A stretch of DNA of 64,000 nucleotides from Bilabrum cf. latius (GCA_965178125.1 OZ237775.1:1-64000), one strand, 5' to 3'. Positions 1,854 through 63,528 are shown, counted from the stretch's first letter. The notes: generated by a model not told the origin, from the sequence alone. Translations and numbers: made by a program.

Positions 1854-4800
1854 ATGCAGGATTTCCATATTGCGAATCCTCTGCATGCCAGTGGTAGTAT
1901 CAAGGGCCACAGCGTTGATGGAGTAAGGCCACTTGGTACCTCCACCCGCCATGAAACGAAGACGTCACAGATTTCAGCTGATGGAAGCTCTGGAGCGCAC
2001 TTTAGCATCGATGGCCAAGCGAAGCTGACCGACAAGCCAGGTATGAAGCATGCGGCAAGCCGATCGATTCTCTTGCACGAAGAGCGCTAGGGTTAGGTAG
2101 ATCTAGGGAAGCCTTCGACCGATGCGGGCATTCCAATGGATACGTGGTTTTGTCCGATTCTGTTGCTAGCTTCGGCAGCTGCCGTCATAGCAGTTATTGC
2201 AGCTTGTGTTGCAGTCTTTGCTCTTCGGGAGCCGTCTGCTGACCCTTCCAACGGCTTGGTAGGTGACCTCAACACAATGCCTGAGGTGGCGCCGACTGCT
2301 TTCGTTGTCAACGAAGGTGGCGATTCGAACGTTACCGTACTAGCAGAGTCATCGCAGTGTGAACTAGAAGTACTTAAGAACCTCCTTGGTTGGACTCAGG
2401 ATGCACCAAGTTTGGCATTTGTTGTCGCTAGGGTGCCCATTTTGGCCCATTAGGAATTTTCAGGTGACGGCGAGTGCGTAATGGCTCAAGAAGTTTCGGA
2501 TGCTCTTCTCTGCACGATTAGGGATATTGCCATCGAGCATGAAGCTGGAGTTCCAGCCGATATTACGGTCCTGCCGGACGATTCAGGCGCGTGGTTTGTT
2601 CCGCTAGCAAACAATAGCTTCGCTGCATCTCCCGATTCTATGGTGGACAGGCAAGCTGCTGTTTTGCTTGTGTACTATGGCAGTAATAATGCAACAGCCC
2701 GTGCTTTCGCTGCTGCGCAGTTCTTTGGTGAGGCAGTGCGTCGCCTTGCTACTTCCCCGCCCAGAACAGCGTGTGACGGCTCGGGGTCGGGCGAAGACAC
2801 CATCGGCATCCAATTTCGCGTAGGTTAGGAAGATCGGCCCGACGCAGACCATGGAGGCGTGCGCGGCACCCCTGGGCCAGACGCCGGGGATAGTCTTGCG
2901 TCCTTCCCGGACCTGCTCGTCACTGTCAGTGGACTGGGGGAGGCCCGCCCCAGCACCAGCCCAGGCCCCTACTCGCAGGGTCAGGTTTCTCCACAGGTAT
3001 CTGCGTCCGCCGTTGCTGCTGTGTCGGCCTCGTCGTTCCCCTCGGTAAGACTAGGACCCGGCCGATTGACAGATACCGAGGCCGATGTGCCATGCTAGTC
3101 CTTTGGTTCCCCACCACCCCTCCGTCTCCTTTCCGCTTGACCACTCTTGACCCCGCCCGCAGAGCGAGCCGTCACCATCATCGAGCGCATCAACTAGCGG
3201 TACAGCTACAGCAACAGCGAGTCCAAGCTCGAGCCCCACTTCCAGTCCCAGCTCCAGCTCCAGCTCCAGCTCCAGCTCCAGTCCCAGCCCAAGCCCAAGC
3301 CCAAGCCCCAGCAGTGCTGCGAGCTCAACTTCCATGCCCAGCCAAAGCTTGGCGCCTAGCATAAGCTCCAGCCCGAGTCCGAGTTCTAGCGCAAGCATTA
3401 GCCCAAGCCCAAGTCCCAGCACGACTGCGACTGCTGAAGCCAGCCCCACACCGAGCCCCACATCCAGCGCCACGTCAAGCAGCTCGGCCAGCCCCACAGC
3501 CAGCAGCAGCCCGTCCGCGAGCACAACCGCAAGCCCGTCCTCGAGTTCATCACCAAGCAGCAGCCCCAGCACGAGTAGTTCCCCGTCCAGCAGCCCCTCT
3601 TCGTCCTCTACCACAGTGAGCCGGATTGTCCAGCTTGCTGCACCCCCATGTTGCACCCCTCCCTCAATCTCCCTGCCCCATGCACCCCTCCATCTCCCTG
3701 CCCCATGCACCCCTCCCTCAATCTCCCTGCCCCATGCACCCCTCCATCTCCCTGCCCCATGCACCCCTCCATCTCCCTGCCCCATGCACCCCTCCATCTC
3801 CCTGCCCCATGCACCCCTCCATCTCCCTGCCCCATGCACCCCTCCATCTCCCTGCCCCATGCACCCCTCCATCTCCCTCCTTCGCAGACGCCGAGCATCA
3901 GCAGCACGACCACCGCGACTCCGAGCCCTTCCACCACTGTCTCGCAGTCTAGCGTGAGACTGCAGAATAGCGCGTGCCATGCGTGGATCATTCCAATTCC
4001 GAAGCCAATCTCCCTGTTTCGCACCCCCTCTCACCCTCCGCGCAGACTCCATCGCCAACACCGTCGCACACGCCGTCCCCGTCTGTCACCCCGAGCTCAT
4101 CGCCCTCGCCCTCTGGCCCCCCAAAGGCGGTCCGCGTGTCGAGTATCCGCCCAGGCACGATCAGTTCCAACATCAAGAGCCCCGCGGTATTCGACGGCAA
4201 GCTCTTCTTCCAGTCGGACGATAGCTTGGGTGACTCGGAGCTGTGGTCCTGTGATTAGAACAACACCTGCAGCCAGGCATACGAGATTGGGCCGGGATGG
4301 ATCGAGGGCAAGCCGGAGGAGATGATTGTATTCGACGGCAAGCTCTGGTTCTGGGCAGAGTCCTCCAGCACCACTGGCAGGGAGCTGCACAGCTGCTCCG
4401 CCAGCATGGACGACTGCACTATCGTGCAAAACCTGTACACCGGTGCGGGAGACGCGCAGCCCACAGACCCGTACAAGCAGATGGCGGTTTTCAACAATCG
4501 GCTGTACTTTGCCGCACATGACGGCAAGAACGGGGAGGAGCTGCACAGCTGCACCTCGGCGGGAGTCATCTCCCGCATCACCGTCGACTCGTCCAGGACA
4601 GCGGGGTCCCTGCCACAGTTCCTGACGGTGTTCAATAGCAAGCTGTATATGGTGGCCTATGTCACGGGGAGCGGCAGGGAGCTGGTGGCGTGTGACACGA
4701 GCCACTCGTGCTCCGTTGTGGTGGACCCCAATGGGAACTACCTGTCCAGCGAGGTGAAGCACCTTACTGTGTTCAACGGCAAGCTTTATTTCACCGCCAA

Positions 4801-5765: not shown

Positions 5766-6409
5766 TGCATATGCAGCGGCGTCATCGTAGGCGTCTTTGT
5801 GACCATGGGAATTTTAGGAGCATTGAATGCTATATCGCTGTCCGATCAGTCTGACTATGATGTGTGGCTCCGCAATGAGCGTGAGATGATAATTTCCCCG
5901 CGCTGCTTGGTAGTACAATTTAGTGCCAGCCCTGCGCACTCACCCATCCTGAATGCAATTTCAAACGTGTTCAAACCACATCTCTCCCAACTGCCCGCAG
6001 CCGAGGTCGAGCAGCGCCAAGCGGTTGAGCGCGCTCTGGCGTAGCTTACGTCAGGCGACGGTAGCGGCACCGCGCTCCGCCAGCCGCAGCAGACTGCAGA
6101 CCCCGTGGAGCTCGACCTGCTGGTTATGTCTTACAGCAGAAATGGAGATGCCCTGTCAGATAACAGGGCACTTCAGGAATTCGCCCAAGCTACCGCCGGC
6201 ATCGTGTCAGACCCGAATTTCCCGGACACTTGCCACGTCCTCAACGCCACGACAAAGGTGTGCGCCCCTCCCCTCACTTTCCTGGAACTCAACTACGGAC
6301 CTGAGGTGCAACTCGGGTCGAGCGTACAACTCGACGTGCCTCCGCATTCCCCTAGTGCCGGCCTAGACCAGTCAGCCACCCTCCGCCTGGCCCCGCCCTC
6401 AGCGCCTGC
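5766..6409 (+). CDS. 5' part of a Dispatched/Patched-family (RND, sterol-sensing domain) gene, interrupted by the virophage
   Basis: After a probable acceptor at ~5765 comes a TM helix (CICSGVIVGVFVTMGILGAL), an in-frame TAG at 6042, and sequence running to ...PPSAPA. This joins in frame to PAHLRHD... at 23327 when the element and one TSD copy are removed. First exon not identified. Confidence 0.75.
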
Positions 6410-7421
6410 GGGGGGACAACAGGTGGTGGTAGGTACACCAAGCGTTTAGGACGAGGGCTACGCTACGCTCGCCCCTCCTTTAAAGGCATATTTAGCAACT
6501 CAAGTGTTTCCCCTATAAACCTAAATGATTTCACAGGGGGTTCCCCAAGAACCCCTATAGAACCCCTCTATGTACCCATTTTCAGATATAAAATTTACTC
6601 CTACGAAGTAGGGGTAAATTGAAGAATTCTAATATTTAACCCCCTTATAAACTCTAACAGCAAAGACAGAGATGTTTTAGTAAAGTAGGAAAAAATGAAG
6701 AAATTAACCAAGTGTCCAAAATATCTCTGTGTTTGCTGTAGGAACGGAAGGATGAATTCCCAAGAGACCAAGAGACCAACCGAGGATTTCCCCAAGAGAA
6801 CAAGGTATTTTATCAAGAGACCGAGGTATGTTCCCAAGCGACCGACCGATGAACCGACCGATGAACCGACCAAGGATTTCCCAAGGATTTCCCAAGCGAC
6901 TAAATTGTTCTCCGAAGCAACCAAACCGATTACCCAAGAGATGATACATTATAAGGAAAACGAAAACAAATTATAATTGTATTTTAAGTCCCTTTGGAAA
7001 AGTCCCCCAAAAATTGAGAGATTTTACAGGTCAATTTTAAGAGACTTAGAAATATTAAAATTAAGTTCCCAAGATGCTCGGGCTTTGCCCTCCGCTCTTT
7101 TGATATCTTTTTCAAAGATTAAAATTAAATGTTGTAATTCCTATGATGCCACCATAAAAATTAAAAGGAAAATAAAAAACAAATTATAATTGTTTTCCAA
7201 CTCCCTAATTAAAAACACAAAAATTGATGGAAAATAATATAGGATACAAAGAAATATTAAAGTTAAGTTCCCTATTAAAATTAAATGTTGTAATTCCTAT
7301 GATGCCACCATAAAAATTAAAAGGAAAATAAAAAACAAATTATAATTGTTTTCCAATTAAAAACACAAAAATTGATTGAAAAATTTTGACAATATAGGAT
7401 ACAAAGAAATATTAAAATTAA
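6410..7421 (+). repeat. Left terminal inverted repeat of the virophage
   Basis: Reverse complement of 22388-23326. The outer ~560 bp look identical except for micro-repeat copy number, and the inner part is a mosaic of shared blocks. Confidence 0.95.
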
Positions 7422-7461
7422 GCAAGGAAAAGCATACCTCTATTAAAGAACTATATAGCAA

Positions 7462-8517
7462 ATGAGTAGCGCCTTTGAAAGAATATTACAATCCCTAAAC
7501 ATTTATCCCAACAGTCGTATTGTAAATTTAATGAAACGACCAAAACGACCCAAAGGAGTAAATCGACCCCACGTAAATGTACCAGAACCTCACCAAGTGG
7601 TACAAATGGATTTATTATCATTACCCCACGACAATAATTATAAATACGCATTAACTGCTATTGATTTACATACAAAGTAGGCCGATGCTGAACCGCTCAA
7701 AACCAAGCGTTAGAACGAAGTATTAAAGGCATCAAAAAAGATTTTCAATCGTGGTAATGTCCAGAAACCGCAGCACCGTTTGGAAATAGATAATGGAAAA
7801 GAATTTAACGCTTTACAAAGATATTTAGAAGAGAGCGATGTATTTGTACGAAGAAATAAAGCAGGTCGCCACCGACAACAAGCATTAGTGGAAAACCTAA
7901 ATAAAACGTTGGGAAAAGCCATATTTACCCTATAGAACGTTAATGAGTTAAATACAGGTAATGAAAGCGTAGAATGGGTGGATATGCTTCCAAACATCAT
8001 TGAAAACTATAATGAATATCAACTAGAAAAGTATATAGAAGAACCACCTTTACCCCCAGAACACTTCGACTTTACGTAGTGTAAAGGAGACGCTTGTAAT
8101 ATATTGGAAGAGGGTACAAGAGTTCGTATACCATTAGAAGAACCCAGAAAGGCTACAAATTTACAGCAAAAATTATCCGGAAATTTTCGTGCTTCAGATT
8201 TACGCTATAATCCAGAAATCAAAACGATAACTAAAGTATTATTAAGACCGAGACAACCACCCTTATATGTTGTGGATTAGGATGATTTAGTGGCTTATCC
8301 AAAAGAGGAATTACAGATTATCGACTTTGATAATGAGGACAATAACCGAGATGCTCAGACAATCTTTCTGCCAAAAAAAATAAAATCCGAGAACGAAACA
8401 GAATATCAAATAGAATGGAAAGATTTTCCAGAACCAGAACATTGGACGTGGGAACCAAAGAATAAAATCCAAGAAATTGCTCCTAATTTAATTTTGGAGT
8501 GGGATATAGAAAATTGA
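7462..8517 (+). CDS. Retroviral-type (rve, DDE) integrase with C-terminal chromodomain, 351 aa with TAG=Gln
   Basis: Single frame with 5 TAGs (7678, 7711, 7933, 8077, 8278) and no TAA/TGA. DDE triad: QMDLL, EIDNGKEF, QALVENLNKT. Chromodomain: EYQIEWKDFPEPEHWTWEP. Ends in TGA. Confidence 0.93.
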
Positions 8518-8574
8518 GATGCCCCGTATCGTACCTTAAGGATTATTTTCGTATTCTATAGTACAACAACAAAA

Positions 8575-10233
8575 ATGTCATTCACTCTGCCGACTAAAGC
8601 GTATTCGTCAAAAAGCCTTATGGACCTATGTAATGCCGGAAAACAAGAGGAATGTATTCAATACCTTAAACAATACTTCTACCGCACCCACGAGCAAGGT
8701 GGCGGGGTGTATTTTCTAATAGCATCTGAATTAAATCGGAATAATATAAGTGATGACGAACCCCAGAAACCAGTCTGGTAGTTCCTTACGAATAAAAATA
8801 TTACTGAAAATTACCTGATTGGGGGACACTGTATTTACGCGATTGTGGGCAACAAAAGAGTAAAGACTTGGTCAGCACGAGACTGGTTCTTAAATGAGAA
8901 TACCGACGTATTTACGATTGTAAGAAAATTTAATTCACCTACCGTGGATTACGACAATCAAACAATTAACGTTATGGGTTCACCTATACTTACACGGGAA
9001 AACTGTGGAAACATAGAGGATTTATCCGAAGACGCAAAAGCAGGCGCGACTATGATTTATGAACATATCCAGAAGGTGTGGACTTCAGAAGACAAAGAAT
9101 AGTGTGATTTTGTGATGAAATGGTTGGCTCACGTTATTGTGGGCGGAAAGAAGTTGGGTACAGCACTATATTTGAAATCTCCACAAGGAACTGGTAAATC
9201 GATGATTATTACCTTCCTTATGAGAAAACTACTCGGATATACCCTTACACTATAGACGCTTACACACAAGATGCTTCAACCCGACGCCTTCAACTCAATT
9301 CTGGACGGGAAACTATTAGTCAATTTTAATGAAATTCCAAAAGCCTCGCCAACTATTTGGGACGCCATGTAGGCAACACTAAGAAATCTTATTACGGAAA
9401 AACACTTTTCCTGTAATGAGAAGTTTGTCAAATCCGAAAGTCGTCCCAACACATTCAATTTAATTATTGATACGAATGATAGTCCAATCAAAATCACCGA
9501 GGAAATCCGTAGATATTGTGTTTTGGATGTGAATACATCTAAGAAAGGAGACAAAGAATACTTTACAACACTAAAACGTTTTACAGAAAATCCAGAAGTG
9601 GCTAAGGCATTTTATATGCTATTGGTTGAAATCTATGATACATCACCAGACTTTACAGGACAATTCGCACCAAAATCAAAGAATTTTTACAAAGGAATTC
9701 TTGATGGCGCACATCCGGTTTTAAAAATTCTAAAAGAAGAGTGGCTGGACGAAGGCAGAGATTTTAAAATGACAGTCTTGGAATTCCGCAATTATCTAAA
9801 GTAGGAACTGAACGGTAGAGTGAAGAACCTTGGTACACCTATGATTAAAACACTATTGTCAGAGGTGGGTGTTCATTCAACGATGAACAAATAGAGAAAA
9901 CAAGAATTTAATGTGAAACACGCAGACTTACTAAAAGGCTTCCAATCTAAATTTTAGGCACTTCGTCATTCTGCTGAGATGGAAAAAGCAAAATCCGAGG
10001 TGGATGTTCTTCGAGAATAGATTAGAGAACTACAGAAACAAGTCGCATAGCAGTAGGAAACGATTGAATAGATGGAATTGGAAAAGGAGATTACACCGAC
10101 GGAAAAAGTCCATAAGAAAATCCAGAAACAATTGAGTGTTGAGAATAGCATCGCTATTCAAAAATGGATAGAAGAAAACCCTCCAAACAAAAAAGGAAAA
10201 CTTTCCAAATTCCTCTGTAAAATTGAGAAGTGA
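8575..10233 (+). CDS. Superfamily 3 (D5-like) helicase, 552 aa with TAG=Gln
   Basis: Continuous frame with ~11 TAGs. Walker A SPQGTGKS, Walker B-like LVNFNEI, motif C LIIDTN, RRY arginine finger, and a C-terminal coiled coil. Ends in TGA. Confidence 0.9.
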
Positions 10234-10290
10234 GTGAGTTCGTACCTTAAGAATAATTATCGTATTCTATAATATATTAGATACTATAGA

Positions 10291-12132
10291 ATGCCCGAAA
10301 TCGATTTTACGGAACCCCAAAGAACCAAATTGCGTCTTAATGGGAAACCAATATGGAGTATGCGATTTGAGAGCGAGGACCTTATCACCGTAAAAGATGT
10401 CTTGGAATTTATTCGTGATTACGACGATGGTGGTGAAAATCCGTTTGATGACTTTAAATTTAAGGTGAATATCAATTACCAAGATACAGGTTGGCGAACA
10501 AGAAGCACTTGGATTACTACAGATGATTTAGAATATCAAGATAGTTTATGGGCGGGCTACGAAGACGACGATGACGACGAATATAGAAAACTGAATTCTT
10601 TTGAACTACTGCTTATTAGAAAGCCAGAACCAGAAGGCGGTGCTGACGAACATAACGATTGTTTATATAACGCTATAAAACAGGCTTTTCCTTTTTCAGT
10701 TGGTCGTAAGGTAAATGTAAAGAGCGCAAAAGGCAAATGGAAAACTACTATTAAAAGATTGTCGAAGTCCGACCTCAAAGAACTCTTGAAAATTGGACGT
10801 GATGACCCCGTTGATTACAGAAGAATACCAGAGATAGAAGACGAACTTCAAGTACGCATTCATGTTGTAGGCGACTTTGAATACACATCTGGAAAAACTC
10901 ATTTTGACCGTCTTCTAACTGTATCATTAACAAATGGGCATTACAAGTATGTTCCCCCCATTAGTTAGAAAGAATTATTTACACCGCCGTCTAAAGAACC
11001 GTGTACGCTAATTACCCGCTTGTATCAATCCGAGAATTCTTATTTACTATTTGATGGAGACCGTGAGTATCAATCAGAAGGCATTACATCAGTTTCCAAG
11101 GATAAATTCATCTTTGAAGTCAAGTCCAAGGAAGAACTAAGAACAAAACACGAAGAACGGATGAAAAATGTAAGGGCATTAGCGAAGGAGACGGGTGGAT
11201 ATATGGATTTATCACGATTTATGTTTAGAACATCCCTATTTGTAAAGTCGTATTTCAGTAAGTTTTCCAAACTTTACCCTGCCGACCCGATTGACCAAGT
11301 TGAAGCACTATGGATTTCAAGAGCATCAGGTGGTGGATTGAATTGGGCAAACAAGAATACTACATTAAAAAACGCATACCAGTACGATATTAACTCATTT
11401 TATCCAAGTATTATGAAGGGTACATTTACATTTCCGGTTAGAAGGGGTAAGTTCGTACAATTTAAAGTACCATCCAGTGGGTTCTATCCGTACGGCATTT
11501 TTAGGGTACATATTGAAAATCTCAATTCTAAATTAGTACAAAAAAGAAAAAACAATTATTATACCCAATATGACATTAACCGAGCGATTGAGACGGGCGC
11601 TTAGGTGTCTCTGATTGAAGACGGTGAAGCCAACGCTTTACTTTACGATGAGACAACAAGGGTGAAGGCAAATGGACTGTTCAAAACGATGATTGAGCGA
11701 TTGTACGGTTATAAAAAATAGGGATTGAAGTGTGCGAAGGAGATACTAAATAATATTTGGGGTTCTCTATGTTAGAAAAACACAATCACAAAAACACTCC
11801 GAGATGGTGATTGTATGAATTTTAGACAATTAAAGAACGCGTATCCTAAAGCATCTGGACGACTTGTATCGGGTATACTATATGACGAAGAGTACGATTA
11901 CAAAACAGCCTACGCAAGAATGGGCCCCTTTCTGACTGGACTTGGACGAAGTAAATTGTCCAAAATGATTGAGCCATATCTTGAAAACATTCACTATGTC
12001 AACACGGATGGTTTCATTAGTGAGAAAGAATTACCTCTAAAGTTAACAACGAACCTTGGGGGTATGAAGTTGGAGCAATCAGGTGAATGTCAAATTATTC
12101 ACAGTAAGAAGAAAATTTTTAGAAAAGATTGA
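10291..12132 (+). CDS. Protein-primed family B DNA polymerase (pPolB), 613 aa with TAG=Gln
   Basis: Motif A YDINSFYPSIM, motif B KEILNNIWGSLC(TAG)K and motif C YVNTDG. TAGs at 10966, 11602, 11719 and 11773. Ends in TGA. Confidence 0.93.
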
Positions 12133-12188
12133 CCAAAGCACCGCAGTTTACCGGCGGAACGGCATAAAAGTGTTTAGAAAAGATTGAA

Positions 12189-12461
12189 TTAAATAGTCTG
12201 CTTTTCCTTTAGTCTCTAAATTTCCTATCGCAAACTATCAAGTTCATCCATAATATTAATTTGTTCCCTTTTTGTGTCTTCCTCTTTTTGAAGCCAATCA
12301 AGGTGTTTTTTGGTTCTACAATGATGTGATTTATTGTACTTCTTATATACACCACCACAGGAACACTTTATCTATTCTCCAAGTTTTTCCTTGTTTTTCC
12401 GGTAGTATTCACGGGCATACAGCTTATCCTGTTCTTTTCTTTCTGAATGACTGAGTGTCAT
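12189..12461 (-). CDS. Small C2H2-like zinc-finger protein (90 aa)
   Basis: MTLSHSERKEQDKLYAREYYRKNKEKLGE(Q)IKCSCGGVYKKYNKSHHCRTKKH..., with 3 TAGs and a TAA stop. Confidence 0.75.
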
Positions 12462-12502
12462 TTTTGTATTCTATAGTATTATACTATAGAGTTAGATTTA
12501 AG

Positions 12503-13144
12503 TCATACATTCTACCAAGCAATTTTTAGAGCATCACTTTTCCCATATCCTCTACCTCTTAACTACTGAGCGATTTTCATTGCTAGTTTTGCTTTTGGGT
12601 TTTTCCGACGGCGCCTCCCTTTTCCAGTTTTTTGTGGTTTAAAACTCTACTTCGCTCTTTCGCTCGAGCCCCAATCAGGCACTTCACCACCCATTCGCAT
12701 TATTCTAGCCTATCTCGATGATAATAGTTCTTTCTAACTGTTTCCCTTCTCTCTAGCATCAAAAAATTCACGCATAGTATCTCTCCGTTCTGACGCATAT
12801 TTTCTATGAATTGCCTAATTAAAATCATCAAGTGTTGTGTCGTGTTGCTCGTGTAGTGATGGTGATAAGAATTTTAGTATACCCACGTCATAATCACCAT
12901 CACTATATTTGTCAATTCCTAGCGTATCAAATTCTTGTTCGGTCTTTTCGGCGAGCATTTCCATCATTTCCCTTTCCTAAGGGTTTACATATACACGATT
13001 AGCGTACTTTTCCCCTATACTCTAGTGCTTCCTCAATCCTTTCAAAATTGCTAGTGCTTGTCTAGCGTCTTTCCCCAAACTCTGATGTGGCTAACTAGCC
13101 AGTAAATGTAGTTGTTCTTCGGTATAATCATCAACACCCGCCAT
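12503..13144 (-). CDS. Hypothetical virophage protein (213 aa) with basic C-terminus; probable core/virion protein
   Basis: Open frame apart from TAGs. Ends ...TGKGRRRRKNPKAKLAMKIAQ(Q)LRGRGYGKSDALKIAW(Q)NV-TGA and is preceded by a TATAGTA motif. Confidence 0.7.
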
Positions 13145-13164
13145 TTACTATACACAATCATAAA

Positions 13165-14442
13165 TTAATCATACGCAAACATTTTCCAAGCCTACTTAAG
13201 TGCTGTCTTCTTGGATATTCCTTTTCCTCTTAAAATGGACGCCATTTTCATAACTCTTGAACGTTTGGTTTCACACTGACATTGACCTCCAAATATTTCC
13301 AGATACATACCCGATACTGGGTCATTCGTATGCGAATGGATTTCTTTCATAATTGGTCTTCCAACTGTATTAGTTGCTAAATCCCAACCTTCCTTAAAAT
13401 CTTGTCCAAAATCCCTTTCTGTGTTCTACTTATGCTTTTCCTAATTTTTTCTTAAAGCGTTTCTTACATCTTCCGGTAAATCATCTAAGCCTCTCCCAAA
13501 CCATTTGGAAAAATAACCAGCCACATCAGTAGCAGCATTAGCCACTCTCTTAGTAAATCCCGATACGTTCTTAGCAATACTCTCTACATCCTACATAATA
13601 AATTGGTTTAAGGGTGGTGTCAAAAACCCATTTGTGCGCAGAACATCTTGGATAAATTTTTGGCAGTTCAGACTAAAAGCACGGTACTGATAAAAGTTGT
13701 ATTCTCCAATTTTCTGTAAAGTGGTTTCATATAATTCCCTTACTGTTTTCTAAGGTTTTCCATTAATATTTACTTCCATAGTTTGTGTTTTCTTGTTGGT
13801 GGAAAATCTTGAGGACAAATTAACCCTCTCATTCTTCTCAAGATAAATCTTTTTTCCACCTCCAAGGTTCAACTCTAAGGCTAAGTGAAAAAAATCATTA
13901 TATCCGTGTTTATTTTTTAACTTTTTCATTTTTCCAAGGGTAATCCAGTTAAGCAACCGATTAATCGCGCCACTAATGGGGGTTCTAATTACTTTCATAG
14001 CGATAATTGTCCTATCCCCGTACTGTTTAAGATTTCTCTGGACTTCGTTCGTATTTCCATACACTACTCCACCCTTAAGCTGTTGCGCCAGCTAACTGCG
14101 CCGAGAGGGGGTGCTTCGCAAACCATCTTTAAGCTGGCTTCGCGGACCATCTTTTAAATACTAATGAAGTGTGTTGGATTGTGTAGGTTTCTTTGCCTTG
14201 GGTTTCTTCGTTTTTCTTTTCGGCAGACCATCTTTAAGCTGTTGCGCCAGCTAACTGCGCCGAGAGGGGGTGCTTCGCACACCATCTTCAAACTTAATTG
14301 CTTTTTCAAGGGCTTCTTTAGAATAAGGATGTTCACTTTTCCATGTCCTTGTTGTTTTACTCTTTGGTTCTTTGACACTAATGTACGTCTTAACAAAACC
14401 AGAATTCATTTTTCCGCCACTAAGTGTATAAAAACTATCCAT
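13165..14442 (-). CDS. 425-aa protein with a putative permuted papain-like (NlpC/P60, PPPDE/LRAT-like) domain and basic termini
   Basis: ORFs 14251-14442 and 13750-14064 share a frame that stays open through TAGs to TAA 13165. Motifs FFHLALEL, LEKNERVN and YRAFSLNCQKFIQDVL give a His followed by NC. The family call is by motif only. Confidence 0.65.
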
Positions 14443-14467
14443 TTAGTATAGGCTTGTATTAAAAAAC

Positions 14468-15085
14468 TCATAGACGACTTCCAAGACCGAAGGTTTTCCG
14501 GACGAATTCCTCCAGTTGCTAAAAGGATGAATAGACACAGTACTAACCCTAATGTAATCCAGCGATTAAATTCGTTCTTGAGCGTTCTACAGACAATAAG
14601 TCCCCCGATTTTTTCCCTTCACGGATTTCCTCAAAAAGACTGTGAGAAGGCACACAAACAAAAATTGAACTTTCCTTAAATAAATCTTTCGCTAATTCCA
14701 ACGAACCAACCATAACAATTAAACGCCTGGATTTCTTCGTGAGCCAATCCGCTTTAATTTTTTCATACACTAATCTTGACTAAGAGTAATAAAAGAGGCG
14801 GTGGGTGCTCTCATCACCGTCAACCAACATCTTCTCCATTTTCTATTTTTCCTGTCCTGAGATTTGAGCATTTACGCATTCGTCTAAATCAATAATTAGC
14901 GTGTCCTTATCCACCGCTTCTAGGGAACGACACAAAGTAGTTTTACCGCTTCCTTTTGGAACAACCACGCACGATTTCTGTTTCTAAGTTCCGTCTTTCG
15001 TCCACCAAGAATATAGACACTTACTTCCTGTATAAGCTAACGGGGCTAACGTACCAGCAACCATTACAGCAGTTGATACTGACAT
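14468..15085 (-). CDS. P-loop NTPase, nucleotide/nucleoside kinase-like (205 aa)
   Basis: Walker A VVVPKGSGKTT, then LIIDLD. Hydrophobic N-terminus. Open with TAG=Gln and ends in TGA. Confidence 0.7.
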
Positions 15086-15140
15086 TGTTTTGATATACTA
15101 TATACCAAGACAAATATTTATTGGTTTACTCTTTTCATAC

Positions 15141-16907: not shown

Positions 16908-16985
16908 TTTTGTTTTCCTTGTATATTATATACAACGAATAAAATTCTATGGGGTCGCGTCCCCATCCGACGAATTATCATTTTT

Positions 16986-18101
16986 TCAAAGTCCTTTCCG
17001 TTTCTTAAATAAAAACTTCACACTCACACTTCCGTGGCGTAAATAAAGAGGTCTTAGATTTGAATAATTGTCTTTCCAATATAGATTAAACTAAATCCTA
17101 TCTACTGAATGTGTATCTAAAAAATCAATTTCGTGGAGAATATGGGGCTGGTATTGAAGAACCTACTAATTAACTGTTTCAGTGTCATCTAATACACAAT
17201 CCATATCCACTAATAAACTCTCTGTTCCAGCACCTGAATTTTGAACTGTATTTGTTGACTGTCCATAGGCAGATTTCTAGGATATTGCCTCACTCCTCAC
17301 TGGAAGACTTGAAGATGTGAAAACTATTCCACGGAAAACCTAAAACTACACTAAACTCCCTCGTTCCTAGGTCATCATTAATCTGTAGTCTCCTGATGGA
17401 TTTCCCTCGAAGTATGCCTAAGGTTCATATTTTCCAACAGAACTGCCATCATCAAATAAAACATTCGTTCCTAAGGTTTTGAATAGAATACTGGCGTATA
17501 AGTCGTCATCTTGGATATCCATTCGTTCCATAGGAAAACCCGTCATCAGTTCGTTAAGGGCTTCATTCAACACTAATTTAAATTTCTGTCCTGAGTTTTC
17601 CTCGTCGTAATCGGGGTTTGCTACTAAAGAAAATTTACCATCTTTAAAGAGTAAAACCGGAACTGATGTAATATCCGCTGACAAAGCGTTCTATAGGGTT
17701 TCGTTGAATAAATCAACAAAATGCTACACGGAATACATATAATAATAAGGAACAAACTACATAGGATTGGAAAATGATGGTTGGTTTTCCCCTGTTAACT
17801 AGGGTCTCCACTGAATGCTTGAGGTCCACAAACTTACTCCGTCTTCATCTGTAATGCTTATTCTATACACTGTTTGATTAGGATTTGAAGATGGATTTTT
17901 CACTTTATCGGTTTCTATGTGTGGAACCCATAAAGGTATTGAATTGGTGCTTATGGAAAACCGGAATACTGACATCGTATAATCACCAACATCCTTATCT
18001 AATAATGGCTACTTGCGGGTTTCGCTATAGGTCGCTGGTTGGAAAGTATCTTCGTTATTTCGTATGTTTGCGGTAATGTAAAATCGGTCTGGAGAACTCA
18101 T
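16986..18101 (-). CDS. Virophage minor capsid protein (penton), 371 aa with TAG=Gln
   Basis: Motifs YSETRK(Q)PLL, YTMSVFRFSISTNSIPLWVP, YYYMYSV(Q)HFVDLFN, MT(Q)E...IVFTSSSLPV and FNLYWKDNYSNLRPLYL...KFLFKKR. Lies directly upstream of the MCP gene. Confidence 0.9.
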
Positions 18102-18157
18102 TTTACTATAGACGTTTATAATTATGGGGTGGGTTTGATTACTTTTCTAAAGTATAA

Positions 18158-18649: not shown

Positions 18650-18714
18650 TTTATAGTATATCCACAGAAATAATTTTTATCAGGTTGCCAAAAGATGTAA
18701 ATAAGAGGTTTTGG

Positions 18715-20199: not shown

Positions 20200-20228
20200 A
20201 GAAACTTTTATAACAAGTTTGACCAAAA

Positions 20229-56103: not shown

Positions 56104-56883
56104 CGTTGTGGTTGCTCGAAAGTTGTTATCATCATCTTCAAAATAATGGGGGTGCCAATGTTGGCACCCCTGTAGGGGCACCCCTCCCTGGTAACCCCTT
56201 GGCGGGGTCTGATCCCCTCCGTCGAATTCCAATCAGAGCGAGGATTCATTTCCAGTCACGTGCTTTTAAAAAAAATCGGTAAGATATGATAAGACTTTAT
56301 CATCAAACTATGTATGGATGTCAGTGGTACCTTGGAAGGCTCGAAAATTGCGAAAGCGTGTGTTCTTTGAAATGCCAAATGAGGAATTTGTGTCGACGGG
56401 CGGACAGATGCCCCTAGGGCTGTGGTGATTGTCGACTTCGCCTTTGTGTACAAACTTTCGGCGTACCTGATGGCTCAAGAACTACATGTGTTGCTTAAGC
56501 TTGCTATGCACGGTGTCTGTGACGATGGCATATTCCAGTCGCTTCCTCGTGGGGCGTCCCGATGTATGGTGGGGACACGACACTTTGTGTCTGTGGTTAG
56601 GATACCGAGACATGATCGTGCATAGTATGAGAGTTTTTGGTCTTGGCTGTGACAATGATGATTGCCGCTCGCGCGGCACTCCGCTGCTGACGCCCGCCCA
56701 TTCGCCTGGTGCGGAACCCTGGAGCCGCGAACTTCCTTGGAAGTCTGAGTCAATTATACCAAGATTAAGTGGTTAATTTGTGGATCCCAATCTGCGGGGC
56801 AACTACGCTGCATTCATCAGACACGTGTGTATCGACCCTTTCCTGTTCCCCTGTCGCAGCTGCTGACCGTCTCCTGGCGGGAC

Positions 56884-59004
56884 ATGCGAGCAGCGATGCG
56901 GTGTCGTCGGATTGCCAGGGGCATGGAGCACGCTGTGCTGCGGCGCATGGGTCCTGTACCCGCGCTGGCGCTCTAGCCCCCATCCCTCCCTCAGCCGCTG
57001 CCGCACGGCCGGGCCCTGTCGTCCACCGCAGCAGGAGCGGGCTCCTCAACCGAGCCCAGCTCTTCTTGGCCCCGGGTTGACACCAAGCCGAGCAGCACCC
57101 AGTCCACAGAGGGAGTTGAGCAGGACCGTCGATCTGCCCTGCTGCGGCAGGTGAAACAGGCCGCCGAACGGTGCAGGCACGAGGGCAGGCCCGTGCGGGT
57201 GGTTGTGCTGGGAGGGGGCGTGTCTGGGCTTGTGCTGGCGCGGTAGCTGCGGGAGGAGTATGCCCGGGTGCTGATGAGAGCGGGCGATTCTGCCTCTGGC
57301 TCTGTGGGGCTGGAAGTGGAGGTGCTGGAGGGGGCCTCTAGGGCCGGGGGCTGGCTGCACACGGAGCACGTGCCCTCCAAGAGCGCGGGCCCGGGGTACA
57401 TTTTGGAGAGAGGGGCCCGTGGGGTGAGGCCGCGAGGGTCGGGCAGGCGAGCCCTGCGACTCATCGAGTCCCTGGGCCTGCGGGAAGAGGCCCTGTGGAC
57501 GGCCAAGGAAGGGGAGGCGAGGTGGGTGCTGCACAAGGGGAGGCCCCACCAGCTGCCTGCCTCTGCCATGGGACTCGTCACGGGGCTCCCCATGGTGCCC
57601 AGTCCCCTGAGCACATTCGGGCTCGAGTTCACCAGAGCGGCGCACCCCGACAGCGCGGCCAAGGGTGGCCCCGGCACTCCGGACGAGAGCGTGCACTCGT
57701 TCTTTTCGAGGAGATTCGGGGGCCCTGCCCTGGCTGACTCGCTGCTGGACGCCATGGTGGCAGGGGTCTGGGCAGGGGACGTGCGCAAGCTGTCGGCGCA
57801 ATCGCTGTTTCCCTTGCCCACTGCGTGGGAGGACGCTGCGGGCAGCATCCAGGCCGGCGCCCTCGCCTCCATGGCGCACTCGGTGGGGGTGCCTCTGCCG
57901 GCGAGCATGCGCGACAGGCTGGACGCAGCGGGAGGATCGCAGAAAGCCGCCGCCCTGGGCGCCGCCCTTGAGGCCCAGGACATCAAGGAGGGCCCTGCCT
58001 CTTCCTTCGTGCGAGAGGCCTCGAGGGCAGCCAGCGTGAGCTTCAGGGAGGGCATGGGGACTCTGCCGCGGGCCCTGGTGCAGGACCTGGGTGGGGAGCA
58101 GGGGTCCTGGAGCGAGGGCAAGGGACAGGGGGCGCGGAGCAGAGTGCGGCTCGGTACTCGGGTCTCTGCCGTGCACGAGCATGCAGCTCCCGCTGCCTCG
58201 TCCTCGTCGGGTGGCTCTCCTCCATTCGTGGTCAGGTGCCAGTCGAGCAGCCAAGGCGCCTTGGACGTGCCGTGTGACGTGATTGTCTCGGCTCTTCCCG
58301 CGGGAGAGCTCAGCGACGTGCTTGAGTCCTCGCTTGGAGGAAGAGGAGGAAGAGGCGATGCCACCAGCACCGGGTGGGAGGGCCTGGGGCGAGCGACCGG
58401 GGCCCTGCGGGATGTGCCCTACGAGAGCGTGGTGAGCGTGAGCTTTGGGCTGGGCGAGGAGGCGGCTGCAGTGGCACTGCCCCCCAGCCGGCGCGGGTTT
58501 GGGTACTTGTGCCCCAGCCAGGAGGAGGAGCGGGTGCTGGGCTGCGTGTGGGACTCGTGCGCATTCCCCGGGCAAGACCTAGGAGCCAGGGAGCAAGGGA
58601 AGGGGGCAGCCGAGAGTGCACCTGGCCAGGCCCGGCTGTCTGTGATGATGGGAGGGGCGAGGTGCCCTGGACTCGTGGACGCCAGCGATGCAGACGTGGT
58701 GGAGGCTGCGTGTGACGCCCTGCAGCGGCACATGGACCTCAACCTGGGCGAGGGAGCCAGGTTCGCGGATGGGGTGCTCGTGTCGAGGGCCAAGGGGGCC
58801 ATCCCCCAGTACACGGTGGGACATGCAGAGCGGCTCCGGGTGCTGGATCGGGCGCTGTCGGAGGCCAGCGCGCCTGCCCTTGCGCGTGGGCTCGTTACGA
58901 TTGGGAACTGGAGGGGCGGGGTCGGCGTGGCTGACGCAGTGGCGCAGGGCGAGGAGCTGGGAGTGGAGCTGGCGAGGTGCATCGGGGCAGGGGCGGGGCA
59001 GTGA
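56884..59004 (+). CDS. PPOX: Protoporphyrinogen oxidase (HemY type) with probable mitochondrial presequence
   Basis: VVVLGGGVSGL FAD motif upstream of TAG 57244, then LEGASRAGGW, ERGARG, DESVHSFFSRRFG, GFGYL, AIPQYTVGH and GVGVADAV. Confidence 0.92.
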
Positions 59005-60958: not shown

Positions 60959-63528
60959 TTACTGCTTCTTCTTGGCATCGGCTGCCTCGGCTGCCTTGCC
61001 CTTGCCCCTGCCCGCCCTGCCCACGCCGAGCAAGCGCCAGAGCATCCCGAACAGCGGACCCGCCACGAGCACCGCAATCATGAAGGGGTGTAGGTAGTAC
61101 CCCGTCATGGTGTAGAAGCCCAGGCCCCGGTCCAGGTACAGGAGCGGGAATGGCGCCATCGAGTAGTTGAGCACCATAGACACGAGGAAGCATCCGATGG
61201 GCACAGCCCACATGGGCAAGTGCGGCCTGTCGGGGTTCATCCTCGGCTGCTTGTACGTGGTGAGCCCAACGAAGGAGCCCAGCCAGGTCAGGAAGGTCAC
61301 TCCGTCCACGCCCTGGTTGTTGGCGCCAACCAGCAGCGGCTTGAACACCTTGTACAGAGCCGCCTGCGCCTCCTGCGCCAGGATCACCTAGAAGAAGCCC
61401 ACGTAGTAGCCCGAGTAGAAGCCGTGCCACAGCGCGGACGCCCCGATGGTCGCGAACTTGGCCATGGCAGACCCGGGGGGAAACCTCCCGTACACGTCTT
61501 TGAGCAGCCACCCCTGCACCTGCTTGTTCCAGTTGCGGATAATGGTGGAGAGGCTCGGGGAGAACTCGCACTGCAGCACGTCGATGTTGCTGATGCCCGT
61601 CCAGGAGCCCTTGGTGATGGCACCCCCCTGAGAGCCAGTGCCCGGCCCGATCTTGGTACCAGGGGCTGCTCCCCGCTCCGAGGGCGCCGAGGAGGTCGAG
61701 GCAGAGGCGGACAGCGAGCTCCCGGGGCCCCCCGTCACGCTGGGCGGCTGCCTGCCGGACACGGGCCCCACGCCCGCGCCCTGGGCCGTGTGCGGCCCAG
61801 CCTCGGCCGGATCAGCGGCCATCTTGGCAGCCTTGGCCCCGCTGCCCCTGTCCTTGACGAACCCGAACCCCTGCGCCACGCCGGCGCCCTCTGCGAGCAG
61901 CCACACGCCGTAGTACTGGAAGCGCACGGCCACCAGGGCGATGTACGTGAGCAGCGCGAAGACGGGCAGGTCGCCCCGGGTCACGCTCGAAGGGGGGGAG
62001 CCGCTCGCTTCCTCGATGGCGAGGTCCTCTGCGGAACCACCGGCGCCGCGCACGGTGTAGCCCAGCACTCCGAGGAGAGGCACCGGCGTCTTGGGGTTGT
62101 AGAGCGACTCGAGCGGGACGTAGGCCGTCATGGGCGCGTTGAGGCCGAGGAAGAAGAGGCCCGAGAGGAAGAGGAAGAGCACGCGCGGGATGCGGGTGGG
62201 CAGCACGCTGAATGCCGTGCTGGGGTTGTCCAGCCGCTCCACGGAGCCCATGGTGACCGTGTAGGCGGCCTGTCCGTTGAGGTACATGACGGGCTGGAAG
62301 GAGGGTCCCACCAGGGCGGTCTGCGGACACAGGCAGTAGCCCATCGTCTCGAGGAAGGAGGGCACCTGGGGCAGGCACGTGGCCAGCCGCTGGTCGGCGA
62401 GGCGGGCCGACTTCGAGAGCGCCTTGCTTGCCTTGACCTTCTTCTCGGTCTCCTGCTTCAGGGCCGGGTCCATCTTGTACGTGTCGTGGGCTGCCTTGGC
62501 GGCGTGGGCGGAGCCCTTGGCCTCCTTGGCGGCCTTGGAGATGGCCCGCGCGGCTGCCAGCTCGGGCTTAGAACCGTCGTACGCAGCGAATGCGAGTGAC
62601 GTAAGCTTGACCACGAGCACCATCTGTGCCGCGCAATCGTCAATAGCATCGGTGGCCGCATCGGGGCGCATGATGTGCCTGTAGAAGAGGAAGAAGAAGG
62701 CCACCGAGCAGCCCGCCAAGTGCCACCAGGGCGTCTTGCCCAGCTTGGGCAGATCCGAGTCCGAGTCCTCCTTCTGCTCCTTGCGGTCCTTGAACGTGGG
62801 GAGGCTGATCGTGAGGGCCAGCCAGGTTAGGGCAGCGCTGATGGGCACGTAGATCCAAGCCCCGCCGAAGACGAACTGCAGCAGCAGAGACCCGAAGATG
62901 GCGTCGCACAGGTGCCTCGTCACACCGCGGGGCAGCATGCAGCCGATCATGGCCAGCGGGTATGTGCCCAGCAGGGCGAGCAGGAATTTGAGGGAACCCT
63001 CAGGGAGGCCAGAGGCGTTCACAGCTGCGGTGGGATCATGGGCGCGGCGAGCAGGCGATGCGGAGGTAGTTTGGGCCGGGCAGGCAAAAGAGGGTCTGGT
63101 GGGTCTCGGGCCCAAAATAATTAAACTTGCCGAGGAGGACGGAACCATACAAATCGATTCGATGATAGAGGTGCCGCATGCCATGGGACCTCATCGCAGG
63201 GCAAGTCGAGAAGTAGCCTGGACACGCGGCCGTTGCTCCCTAGGCCAGTTCCCCCGAAATCCTGCCATTTATTGAGTAACGAGCACGGTGCCAGCTTGCT
63301 CTCACCTTCATCCAAATATGGCTGAACTGGGGCAAAATCCCAAGCAGCATGCTTCAACAGGGGCTGCTCTACAGCAGCGATTTGCGAGAGCACTTCCCCG
63401 AAGGCAGACTGAGCAGTGCCCAGTCCGGCAGGGATGGCCTGACCAACGGCCTTGACCCCCGCCTCGATATGTGTCGAGAAGTCAACCTTCAGCAGCACAT
63501 CCGTCACCGATCGAGTGACGGCCTGCAT
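60959..63528 (-). CDS. MBOAT lysophospholipid acyltransferase (LPCAT3/ALE1-like), multi-exon
   Basis: QMVLVVKLTSLAF, LVGP, QYYGVWLLAEG, RNWNKQVQGWL and SALWHGFYSGYY. In-frame TAG at 61388; ends KKKQ-TAA. Confidence 0.9.

What the first reader, a model, noticed from the sequence alone, without database searches (positions are those of the whole stretch)
1854..63528. Host nuclear code uncouples the two UAR codons: UAG=Gln, UAA and UGA=stop
Conserved host genes contain in-frame TAG at Gln-like positions: RPC8 (L*PGS*FDE), CFAP299 (LL*ELASREE), CDPK (VRHR*TGD), GH27 (DAD*IVNDW), and also UBA1, PPOX, MBOAT and Dispatched. Genes end in TGA or TAA: MBOAT KKKQ-TAA, the sulfatase, and the virophage ATPase, which ends with TAA at its canonical C-terminus. 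Established knowledge: most eukaryotic Gln reassignments change UAA and UAG together, and UAG-only reassignment is rare (e.g. the fornicate Iotanema spirale and some ciliates). The host here is GC-rich with TTAGGG telomeres and a flagellar gene, so it may be an independent case.
Basis: partly seen in the sequence, partly recalled or inferred. Interest (0 to 1): 0.88.

Follow-up and report, generated by a model that had tools for sequence, protein, structure and literature searches.

The report
Amber codon read as glutamine
A GC-rich flagellated microbe, and a virophage integrated near the end of its chromosome, read the stop codon TAG as glutamine while keeping TAA and TGA as stops, which is a rare but already known kind of genetic-code change.

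Summary
The window is a chromosome end: 149 CCCTAA repeats, GC-rich host genes, and a 16.9-kb low-GC integrated virophage.

- **TAG is a sense codon.** Sixteen in-frame TAGs in host genes sit inside ungapped alignments to homologues. The 12 virophage ORFs hold 99 in-frame TAG, 0 TAA and 0 TGA in 4420 codons. All three triplets are common in the other two frames.
- **It codes for glutamine.** I compared the element with three syntenic metagenomic virophages that also carry in-frame TAGs. Gln is by far the best fit (log-likelihood +92.7; next is Glu at -20.4; Leu is excluded). Close host relatives show Gln or CAG at 3 of 4 of our TAG codons, and one relative's ORF stops opposite our CAG.
- **TAA is not glutamine.** There are 0 in-frame TAA against 105 CAA in the AT-rich element. 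TAA ends three of its ORFs; I checked the ATPase, which stops at a conserved C-terminus. TAA also ends the host MBOAT gene after KKKQ.
- **TGA is the main stop.**

This is the NCBI table-15 type of code, known from Iotanema and three ciliates, here in a GC-rich non-ciliate. No tRNA(CUA), eRF1 or peptide evidence could be obtained, because no genome is held. The host was not placed, so an independent origin is untested. Verdict: new member of a known kind.

The parts
1..894 (.). Telomere: 149 perfect CCCTAA units. It is followed by a 55-nt subtelomeric repeat at 897-1215.
6402..23333 (.). Integrated virophage, about 37% GC in a 57-71% GC host. It is bounded by composite inverted repeats of about 1 kb (6402-7421 and 22332-23333).
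7462..8517 (+). rve integrase with chromodomain. 5 in-frame TAG, ends TGA.
8575..10233 (+). Primase/helicase-like protein (DUF5906; PHROG DNA primase). 11 in-frame TAG, ends TGA.
10291..12132 (+). Protein-primed type B DNA polymerase. 4 in-frame TAG, ends TGA.
12503..13144 (-). ORF of unknown function. 9 in-frame TAG, ends TGA. Only its C-terminal 40-50 residues match the related loci.
13165..14442 (-). ORF of unknown function, conserved in the related virophage loci. 8 in-frame TAG, ends TAA.
14468..15190 (-). Conserved virophage ORF with a weak AAA_24 hit. 7 in-frame TAG, ends TGA. The alignment to relatives reaches residue 240 of 240.
15141..16907 (-). Major capsid protein, Sputnik type. 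14 in-frame TAG, ends TGA.
16986..18200 (-). Penton (minor capsid protein V18/19 type). 14 in-frame TAG, ends TGA.
18715..19896 (-). Conserved virophage ORF of unknown function. 13 in-frame TAG, ends TGA.
20229..21131 (-). Packaging ATPase-like P-loop protein. 9 in-frame TAG. It ends in TAA at the C-terminus shared with relatives.
21322..21858 (+). Conserved virophage ORF. 5 in-frame TAG, ends TGA.
23156..26158 (+). Patched/Dispatched-like host gene, ends TGA. TAG at ORF residues 319, 460, 727 and 966. Two further TAGs at residues 4 and 39 lie in the virophage repeat arm and are not coding sequence.
27614..30183 (-). Calcium-dependent protein kinase with at least one intron. TAGs at VRHR-TAG-TGD and SS-TAG-PAD in exon 1 and at GI-TAG-NSV in the kinase C-lobe. 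Ends TGA.
30457..31923 (-). GH27 alpha-galactosidase. 1 in-frame TAG (residue 157), ends TGA.
32724..34181 (-). Sulfatase. TAGs at residues 47, 119 and 122. The 3' end of the ORF is not verified.
34188..39914 (-). Long membrane protein ORF of 1908 aa. 5 in-frame TAG, ends TGA. TAG 616 aligns to Gln in an 81% identical relative. A 96% identical relative's ORF stops opposite our CAG 106.
41269..42600 (-). RNA polymerase III subunit RPC8/Rpc25. TAG at ORF residues 184 and 188 inside the conserved domain, ends TGA. Codon 184 is CAG in two related runs.
44883..45680 (+). CFAP299 (flagellar protein). TAG codons at 45216 and 45264. It ends in TGA within one residue of the homologues' C-termini.
45782..50051 (-). 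Ubiquitin-activating E1-like enzyme. TAG at ORF residues 102, 144, 1175 and 1208, ends TGA.
56827..59004 (+). Protoporphyrinogen oxidase-like gene. TAG at residues 50 and 140, ends TGA.
60959..63184 (-). MBOAT acyltransferase. 1 in-frame TAG just after the WHG motif. Ends KKKQ-TAA.

Best explanation
The host nucleus uses a variant genetic code of the NCBI table-15 type. UAG is an ordinary glutamine codon, and UAA and UGA remain terminators, with UGA preferred.

The integrated virophage is translated by the same machinery and has adapted fully. About 40% of its Gln codons are TAG (99 of 248), against about 9% in host genes (27 of 313).

Inferred mechanism, not shown here: a tRNA-Gln with anticodon CUA pairs with UAG but not UAA, and the eRF1 has lost UAG recognition while keeping UAA and UGA.
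For: **TAG is sense**
- The 12 virophage ORFs tile 92% of 7462-21858. They hold 99 in-frame TAG, 0 TAA and 0 TGA in 4420 codons, while all three triplets are common off-frame.
- Pfam capsid, penton, integrase, polymerase and primase matches need read-through of TAG.
- Sixteen host TAG codons lie inside ungapped alignments to homologues.

**TAG is Gln: virophage evidence**
- The comparison used three non-redundant syntenic metagenomic virophages (L001, L004, L005). It gave 8144 aligned pairs at 53% identity.
- Residues opposite our TAGs: Q 37 of 167, then E 18, T 14, K 13, S 13.
- Our residues opposite their TAGs: Q 23 of 93.
- TAG lies opposite TAG 29 times.
- Log-likelihood: Gln +92.7, Glu -20.4, Lys -40.3.
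- Gln is also best with each locus taken alone: +21.9, +39.8 and +10.4. The same test recovers 20 of 20 known amino acids.
- Gln stands opposite TAG in 23% of cases, like the 27-29% self-identity of CAA/CAG codons.
- Ten close capsid fragments give Q 17 of 49, with log-likelihood +17.2 for Gln, -3.4 for Glu and -171.8 for Leu.

**TAG is Gln: host evidence**
- RPC8 codon 184 (TAG) reads CAG in two relatives about 7-9% divergent.
- UBA1 TAG 1208 is Q in a 96% identical relative.
- TAG 616 of the 1908-aa ORF is Q in an 81% identical relative. A 96% identical relative's ORF stops just before our CAG 106.

**TAA and TGA are stops**
- The element has 0 in-frame TAA against 105 CAA and 44 CAG. My arithmetic: about 236 TAA would be expected if TAA were Gln at the same ratio.
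- 3 of its 12 ORFs end in TAA and 9 in TGA.
- In the three relatives, 25 homologous ORFs end in TAA 18 times and TGA 6 times; 1 runs off a contig end. ATPase alignments run to the last or next-to-last residue on both sides.
- Host MBOAT ends KKKQ-TAA. CFAP299 ends in TGA within one residue of four full-length PDB homologues.
- 10 homology-supported host ORFs (8253 codons) hold 27 TAG, 0 TAA and 0 TGA. Nine end in TGA and one in TAA.
Against: - **Distant homologues do not give Gln on their own.**
  - A column score on the capsid against 150 representatives recovered 31 of 31 control codons.
  - For TAG (13 columns) no amino acid scored positive: T -3.3, Q -5.3.
- **Some TAGs sit where distant homologues conserve other residues.**
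  - Capsid 110 is L/I/M/V, 161 is G and 275 is Y/F.
  - CDPK 110 is Leu in 5 of 5 displayed PDB kinases, several of them the same protein.
  - GH27 157 is Thr in 3 of 3.
  - PPOX 140 is His in 3 of 3 variants of one protein.
- **One close-relative comparison disagrees.** UBA1 TAG 1175 is Arg in the 96% identical relative.
- **Direct host evidence for the amino acid is small.** It rests on five close-relative comparisons.
- **No mechanism or peptide evidence.** There is no tRNA gene in the window or the related loci. No genome is held, so tRNA(CUA) and eRF1 were not seen, and there are no peptide data.
- **A circularity.** The zero counts of in-frame TAA and TGA in host ORFs are partly by construction, because the ORFs were delimited by those codons.
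Confidence: 0.85

Rival explanations
1. Both UAA and UAG mean glutamine (the common code 6). UAA is simply rare in a GC-rich genome.
For: - Host genes use CAA rarely (48 against 238 CAG).
- By my arithmetic only about 5 in-frame TAA would be expected beside 27 TAG.
- Host ORFs were delimited with TAA as a stop.
Against: - The AT-rich virophage, translated by the same ribosomes, has 105 CAA, 44 CAG and 99 TAG but 0 in-frame TAA in 4420 codons.
- TAA ends 3 of its 12 ORFs, and 18 of the 25 homologous ORFs in relatives. The ATPase and several other alignments run to the last or next-to-last residue on both sides.
- Host MBOAT ends KKKQ-TAA.
Confidence: 0.03
2. UAG is a sense codon but codes for another amino acid. 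Candidates are Glu, Lys, Leu as in the rhizarian exLh, Ser as in Scotinosphaera, or Tyr.
For: - Distant-homologue columns are not Gln-rich.
- CDPK 110 aligns to Leu.
- Capsid positions 175 and 275 align to Tyr/Phe.
- Glu is the second-best fit.
Against: - Gln beats Glu by about 113 log units with three relatives, and is best with each relative alone.
- Leu is the worst fit (-171.8). Leu stands opposite only 4 of 260 TAG observations.
- TAG and CAG interchange in close host relatives.
Confidence: 0.05
3. [quoted passage not shown]
For: Only about two dozen ORF ends could be examined in one window. The eRF1 is unseen.
Against: - None of the 12 virophage ORFs, the 10 host ORFs counted, or the 24 complete homologous ORFs in related loci needs TAG as its terminator.
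- Where it was checked, the conserved C-terminus coincides with TAA or TGA.
Confidence: 0.06
4. The TAGs are not translated. They would be decay of pseudogenes, be removed as tiny introns, or be edited in the mRNA.
For: None specific. The kind of the runs that hold the sequence is only guessed.
Against: - Decay would also create TAA and TGA. There are none in 4420 plus 8253 codons.
- Alignments to homologues pass through TAG positions residue for residue, without the insertion an intron would leave.
- Contigs of two other runs cover RPC8, CFAP299 and UBA1 with no differences. They skip only 87 and 94 nt stretches with GT..AG ends elsewhere.
Confidence: 0.01

Closest known systems
NCBI translation table 15 type nuclear code: Iotanema spirale (fornicate) and the ciliates Hartmannula sinica, Trochilia petrani and Protocruzia tuzeti (passages of PMC11687900 and PMC5304391 read)
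   Same: UAG alone is reassigned to glutamine, and UAA and UGA stay terminators. TAG is used widely inside genes.
   Different: - This genome is 57-71% GC with TTAGGG-type telomeres. From recall, that is not ciliate-like.
- It carries a PPOX gene.
- TGA is the main stop (9 of 10 host ORFs). The two phyllopharyngean ciliates use UAA for over 90% of stops (PMC11687900 passage).
- TAG is about 9% of host Gln codons here, against 18.5% and 31.8% in those two ciliates.
Code 6 (UAR = Gln) of many ciliates, ulvophycean green algae, Hexamita, Streblomastix strix and Amoeboaphelidium protococcarum (PMC11687900 passage)
   Same: A stop codon of the UAR pair is read as glutamine.
   Different: UAA is not a sense codon here. 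It is absent in frame and ends ORFs.
UAG = Leu codes of the rhizarian exLh and uncultivated phyllopharyngean ciliates, and UAG = Ser in Scotinosphaera (PMC11687900 and PMC5304391 passages)
   Same: UAG is uncoupled from UAA.
   Different: The amino acid differs. Leu is the worst fit here. Ser scores -90.0 against +92.7 for Gln.
Endogenous virus elements of Streblomastix strix that follow their host's variant code (PMC10120064 passage)
   Same: An integrated virus-like element uses the host's non-standard stop-codon meaning. This indicates a long association with such hosts.
   Different: Here the element is a Sputnik-type virophage and the code is UAG only. The element belongs to a clade with free-standing metagenomic relatives that share the recoding.
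Amber-recoded (code 15) bacteriophages such as crAss-like phages (search listings and abstracts only)
   Same: TAG is read as Gln in viral genes.
   Different: In those phages the host keeps the standard code (abstract listing). Here host genes themselves contain in-frame TAG, and no tRNA gene is found in the element or its relatives.

Membership tests
Table-15 type nuclear code (UAG = Gln; UAA and UGA = stop) | In-frame UAG inside conserved protein-coding genes | tested here: met
   16 host TAGs lie inside alignments to homologues. There are 99 in the virophage ORFs.
Table-15 type nuclear code (UAG = Gln; UAA and UGA = stop) | UAG corresponds to glutamine | tested here: met
   Substitution-profile likelihood: Gln +92.7, Glu -20.4. 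Gln is best with each of the three loci alone. Close host relatives show CAG or Q at 3 of 4 TAG codons, and one ORF stops opposite our CAG. The column test with distant homologues was inconclusive.
Table-15 type nuclear code (UAG = Gln; UAA and UGA = stop) | UAA remains a terminator and is not a sense codon | tested here: met
   0 in-frame TAA against 105 CAA in the element. TAA ends 3 of 12 ORFs here, and 18 of 25 in relatives with alignments running to the last residues. MBOAT ends KKKQ-TAA.
Table-15 type nuclear code (UAG = Gln; UAA and UGA = stop) | UGA remains a terminator | tested here: met
   There is no in-frame TGA. TGA ends 9 of 12 virophage ORFs and 9 of 10 host ORFs. The CFAP299 C-terminus lies within one residue of its homologues.
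Table-15 type nuclear code (UAG = Gln; UAA and UGA = stop) | UAG is not also used as a terminator | tested here: inconclusive
   No ORF end examined needs TAG, but only one window was available.
Table-15 type nuclear code (UAG = Gln; UAA and UGA = stop) | A tRNA-Gln gene with anticodon CUA | not testable with these tools
   There is no tRNA in the window and no genome is held.
Table-15 type nuclear code (UAG = Gln; UAA and UGA = stop) | eRF1 with changed stop-codon recognition | not testable with these tools
   eRF1 is not in the window. The search of the window's own genome was answered 'no whole genome is held'.
Code 6 (UAA and UAG = Gln) | In-frame UAA at sense positions | tested here: not met
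   0 of 4420 virophage codons and 0 of 8253 host codons.
UAG = Leu code (table 16 type) | UAG aligns to leucine or other hydrophobic residues | tested here: not met
   Leu stands opposite TAG in 4 of 260 observations. Its log-likelihood of -171.8 is the lowest of the 20 amino acids.
Virophage (Sputnik/mavirus-like element) | Sputnik-type double jelly-roll major capsid protein, penton protein and packaging ATPase | tested here: met
   Pfam Sputnik_MCP_1st (1.2e-23), MCP_V20_C (9.5e-26) and V18-19 (1.2e-08), plus a P-loop ATPase ORF. 2309 capsid relatives were found at E up to 0.001.
Virophage (Sputnik/mavirus-like element) | Cysteine protease for capsid maturation | not tested
   No ORF was assigned to a protease by Pfam or PHROGs.

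The most novel reading that the evidence does not exclude
This may be an independent UAG-to-Gln reassignment in a GC-rich, flagellated, non-ciliate eukaryote lineage. That lineage has several sequenced relatives and a chromosome-level assembly.

An environmentally distributed clade of virophages has co-adapted to it, and by implication so have the giant viruses they parasitise. These virophages use TAG for up to about 40% of their Gln codons, so they could not express their genes in standard-code hosts. On this reading the code change acts as a barrier that partitions virus-host networks. It also offers a system in which the uncoupling of UAA from UAG by eRF1 can be tested.
Probability: 0.45. 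Interest if true: 0.78.

Novelty: new member of a known kind. Interest (0 to 1): 0.64.

Why it matters
- **Rarity.** UAA and UAG almost always change meaning together. Passages of PMC11687900 name only four eukaryotes where UAG alone became Gln.
- **Mechanism.** A case outside the ciliates, in a GC-rich genome that prefers UGA as its stop, widens the conditions under which the two codons can be uncoupled. It also gives a comparison point for eRF1 and tRNA(CUA) evolution.
- **Annotation.** Standard-code gene calling truncates these genes. The relatives in the protein libraries appear as fragments that end exactly at TAG positions.
- **Viruses.** The virophage result shows that mobile viral elements track the host's code. 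Amber-rich virophage contigs in metagenomes may mark hosts with this code.

Tried and rejected
**Searches that found nothing**
- ARAGORN found no tRNA in the window or in the six related loci.
- Rfam gave no match at gathering thresholds.
- Two scans of viral contigs found no relative: the capsid alone and alignment A3.

- The window's own genome is not held, so tRNA(CUA), eRF1 and genome-wide codon statistics could not be done.
I made no taxonomic placement by that route and did not try again.

**Analyses that were inconclusive**
- Codetta-like column scoring of the capsid against 150 distant representatives was inconclusive for TAG. Columns with under 50% occupancy were dropped, leaving 13 of 14 TAGs.
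- Single PDB homologues were mostly uninformative at TAG positions.

**Limits of the sequencing runs**
- No RNA holder is listed. X5 and X6 are 'RNA?' guesses, and the tool marked X5 'probably DNA'. Their contigs with GT..AG joints are only a hint of transcription.
- The table of other letters was cut (520 rows not shown). Only RPC8 codon 184 could be read. Codon 188 shows no change common to both relatives, but a change in one of them cannot be excluded.

**Ideas considered and dropped**
- An aphelid host, prompted by runs filed under other organism names and an 'algae metagenome'. I did not pursue it. It has no support beyond that, and from recall a kinase plus EF-hand CDPK is not an opisthokont trait.

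**Literature**
- Searches for a published description of this case found none in the held library. Supplements were not opened.

Full report
**What the window is**

Bases 1-894 are 149 perfect CCCTAA units, so this is a chromosome end. Most of the window is 57-71% GC. Between about 6.4 and 23.3 kb the GC content falls to 34-45%.

That low-GC block is bounded by composite inverted repeats of about 1 kb, at 6402-7421 and 22332-23333. When TAG is read through, it encodes:
- an rve integrase with a chromodomain;
- a DUF5906/primase-like protein;
- a type-B DNA polymerase;
- a Sputnik-type major capsid protein (Pfam 1.2e-23 and 9.5e-26);
- a V18/19-type penton;
- a P-loop ATPase.

It is an integrated virophage.

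The GC-rich part carries ordinary eukaryotic genes:
- Patched/Dispatched-like;
- a calcium-dependent protein kinase;
- a GH27 alpha-galactosidase;
- a sulfatase;
- RPC8;
- CFAP299;
- a ubiquitin-activating E1;
- protoporphyrinogen oxidase;
- MBOAT;
- a receptor-L-domain protein.

**Checking the observation**

The 12 ORFs of the element cover 92% of 7462-21858. They contain 99 in-frame TAG, no TAA and no TGA in 4420 codons. The two other frames of the same ORFs contain 104 and 156 TAA, 79 and 169 TGA, and 88 and 62 TAG.

Only reading TAG as sense gives a compact viral gene map. Summed ORFs of at least 150 aa in 6500-22500 are:

| Reading | Summed ORFs (aa) |
|---|---|
| Standard code | 773 |
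| TAG as sense | 5225 |
| TAA as sense | 2378 |
| TGA as sense | 1484 |

In ten homology-supported host ORFs (8253 codons) there are 27 TAG, 0 TAA and 0 TGA. I left out the sulfatase, three ORFs without clear homologues, and the N-terminal stretches of RPC8 and UBA1.

The zeros are partly by construction, because the ORFs were delimited by TAA and TGA. The independent point is that 16 host TAGs lie inside alignments to homologues that continue on both sides without a gap. That also rules out tiny introns at those sites.

**Which amino acid: distant homologues**

Distant homologues are weak witnesses. For the capsid I built a column score against the 150 best of 2309 representatives. It called 31 of 31 control codons correctly. 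For TAG (13 columns) no residue scored positive: T -3.3, Q -5.3.

In host genes, Gln appears in at least one displayed homologue at 5 of 12 TAG positions. CDPK 110 aligns to Leu in 5 of 5, GH27 157 to Thr in 3 of 3, and PPOX 140 to His in 3 of 3.

**Which amino acid: close relatives of the virophage**

Close relatives are decisive. Ten capsid fragments at 48-75% identity were picked from the 155 capsid hits. Opposite our TAGs they show Q 17 of 49, E 7, T 5, Y 4. I estimated a substitution table from the same alignments. With it, Gln scores +17.2, Glu -3.4 and Leu -171.8.

Four of these fragments end exactly one residue before one of our TAGs (at 383 and 417). This is what a standard-code gene caller would produce if they carry TAG there too.

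**Which amino acid: related virophage genomes**

A scan of metagenome contigs with a small capsid alignment returned six loci. They are syntenic virophage genomes of 38-48% GC. Their capsid genes hold 3-10 in-frame TAGs each and end in TGA.

I used three non-redundant loci: L001, L004 and L005. L002 and L003 give the same alignments as L004, L006 is short, and the query 12503-13144 was dropped because only its tail matches. The result was 8144 aligned pairs at 53% identity:
- Our TAGs face Q 37 of 167, then E 18, T 14, K 13, S 13, R 11.
- Their TAGs face our Q 23 of 93.
- TAG faces TAG 29 times.
- Log-likelihood is Gln +92.7, Glu -20.4, Lys -40.3.

Gln wins with each locus alone (+21.9, +39.8, +10.4). 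The same test recovers 20 of 20 real amino acids, although that control uses the table it is tested on.

The 23% Gln opposite TAG matches the 27-29% self-identity of CAA/CAG codons. It far exceeds Gln opposite any other residue (at most 6.5%). TAG/TAG pairs (13, 11 and 5) are close to what independent codon choice among Gln codons predicts (9.1, 7.4 and 4.5). So TAG behaves as a synonymous Gln codon.

**Which amino acid: direct host evidence**

Direct host evidence is small but consistent.
- Contigs of two runs that are 7-9% divergent show A>G at 42252, which turns RPC8 codon 184 from TAG to CAG. The neighbouring change is a synonymous CTG to CTT.
- A 96% identical relative of the E1 enzyme has Gln at our TAG 1208 but Arg at TAG 1175.
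- An 81% identical relative of the 1908-aa protein has Gln at TAG 616. A 96% identical fragment stops just before our CAG 106.

**TAA and TGA**

The AT-rich element is the sharp test, because there CAA outnumbers CAG 105 to 44. If TAA were Gln, about 236 in-frame TAA would be expected beside 99 TAG (my arithmetic). There are none.
- Three of the 12 ORFs end in TAA and nine in TGA, and two of the three TAA ends are followed within 7-14 codons by further in-frame TAA stops.
- In the three relatives, 25 homologous ORFs end in TAA 18 times and TGA 6 times; one runs off a contig end.
- The alignments reach the ends on both sides. For the ATPase, ours reaches 300 of 300 (TAA); theirs reach 319 of 319 (TAA), 327 of 327 (TAA) and 308 of 309 (TGA).
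- In the host, MBOAT ends KKKQ-TAA. From recall, this looks like a C-terminal dilysine motif.
- CFAP299 ends in TGA within one residue of the ends of four full-length PDB homologues.
- Nine of the ten host ORFs counted end in TGA.

**Rivals**

- *Code 6* fails on the TAA evidence.
- *Another amino acid* fails on the likelihoods. Leu, the known alternative for UAG-only codes, is the worst fit.
- *Decay* would also make TAA and TGA.
- *Introns or editing* are contradicted by ungapped alignments.
  - More weakly, contigs of two further runs cover RPC8, CFAP299 and UBA1 without a difference.
  - Those contigs skip only 87 and 94 nt GT..AG stretches elsewhere.
  - The kind of those runs is only guessed, and no RNA holder is listed.
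- *A dual sense/stop meaning of UAG* cannot be excluded from one window, but no ORF end here needs it.
- *A suppressor tRNA supplied by a virus* would not explain TAG in host genes. No tRNA is encoded in the element or its relatives.

**Mechanism (inferred)**

A tRNA-Gln(CUA) would read UAG but not UAA. This principle is described in a passage of PMC5304391. It would be paired with an eRF1 that no longer recognises UAG. Neither could be looked for, because no genome is held.

**Comparison with what is known**

Passages of PMC11687900 list UAG-only Gln in Iotanema spirale, Hartmannula sinica, Trochilia petrani and Protocruzia tuzeti. They list UAG = Leu in a rhizarian and some ciliates, and UAG = Ser in Scotinosphaera. 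The code is NCBI table 15.

The present case meets the four sequence-level criteria of that code. It differs in three ways:
- a GC-rich genome with TTAGGG-type telomeres;
- TGA rather than TAA as the main stop;
- a lower share of TAG among host Gln codons, 27 of 313.

A precedent for integrated viral elements following a host's variant code is Streblomastix strix (passage of PMC10120064).

Seven literature searches found no description of this case. The library is incomplete and supplements were closed.

The host was not placed phylogenetically, so 'independent origin' remains a hypothesis. A kinase plus EF-hand CDPK and a flagellar gene fit a flagellated protist outside the opisthokonts, but that is inference from recall.

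**Verdict**

It is a new member of a known kind of code. The added result is an amber-rich virophage clade that shares the code.

Noticed in passing
window 6402-23333: An apparently intact 16.9-kb virophage is integrated about 5.5 kb inside the telomere repeats. It has composite terminal inverted repeats of about 1 kb (the 475-nt arms are 98% complementary) and an rve integrase carrying a chromodomain.
   Followed up: partly
L001-L006 (metagenome contigs): These are syntenic virophage genomes of 38-48% GC that also carry in-frame TAG. L001, L004 and L005 hold 129 in 9088 codons of homologous ORFs and end their ORFs mostly in TAA (18 of 25). In the representative library, the 5 capsid hits above 50% identity are all fragments of 133-270 aa. 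The remaining 145 hits are 24-32% identical and mostly full length.
   Followed up: yes
window 7462-21858 compared with the host genes: TAG makes up about 40% of Gln codons in the virophage (99 of 248) but about 9% in host genes (27 of 313). This is as expected if AT pressure favours TAG over CAG.
   Followed up: partly
window 897-1215: A 55-nt subtelomeric tandem repeat (5.8 copies, 97% matches) lies directly behind the telomere.
   Followed up: no
window 42840-42926 and 50052-50145: Contigs of two other runs skip 87 nt (GT..AG) and 94 nt (CT..AC on the + strand, that is GT..AG on the minus strand). These are likely short introns. The second would remove the start of the long E1 ORF, so the true first exon lies upstream of 50146.
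   Followed up: partly
runs X5-X7: Runs filed under two other coded organism names hold 72-89% of the sampled words. The two that were laid (X5, X6) have long contigs with no or almost no differences over these genes. Runs labelled 'algae metagenome' and 'protist metagenome' hold small shares. I did not interpret this further.
   Followed up: no
window 12503-13144 and 13165-14442: Two neighbouring virophage ORFs end with similar C-terminal motifs (G-K/Y-G-x-S-x-x-x-A-L-K-x-A-W). The related loci carry the same tail on two ORFs each.
   Followed up: no
window 28904-29383 (-): The CDPK kinase domain is interrupted between DIWS and LGVIAF by about 26 codons that have no counterpart in PDB kinases. 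This is probably an intron that happens to be open in frame.
   Followed up: no
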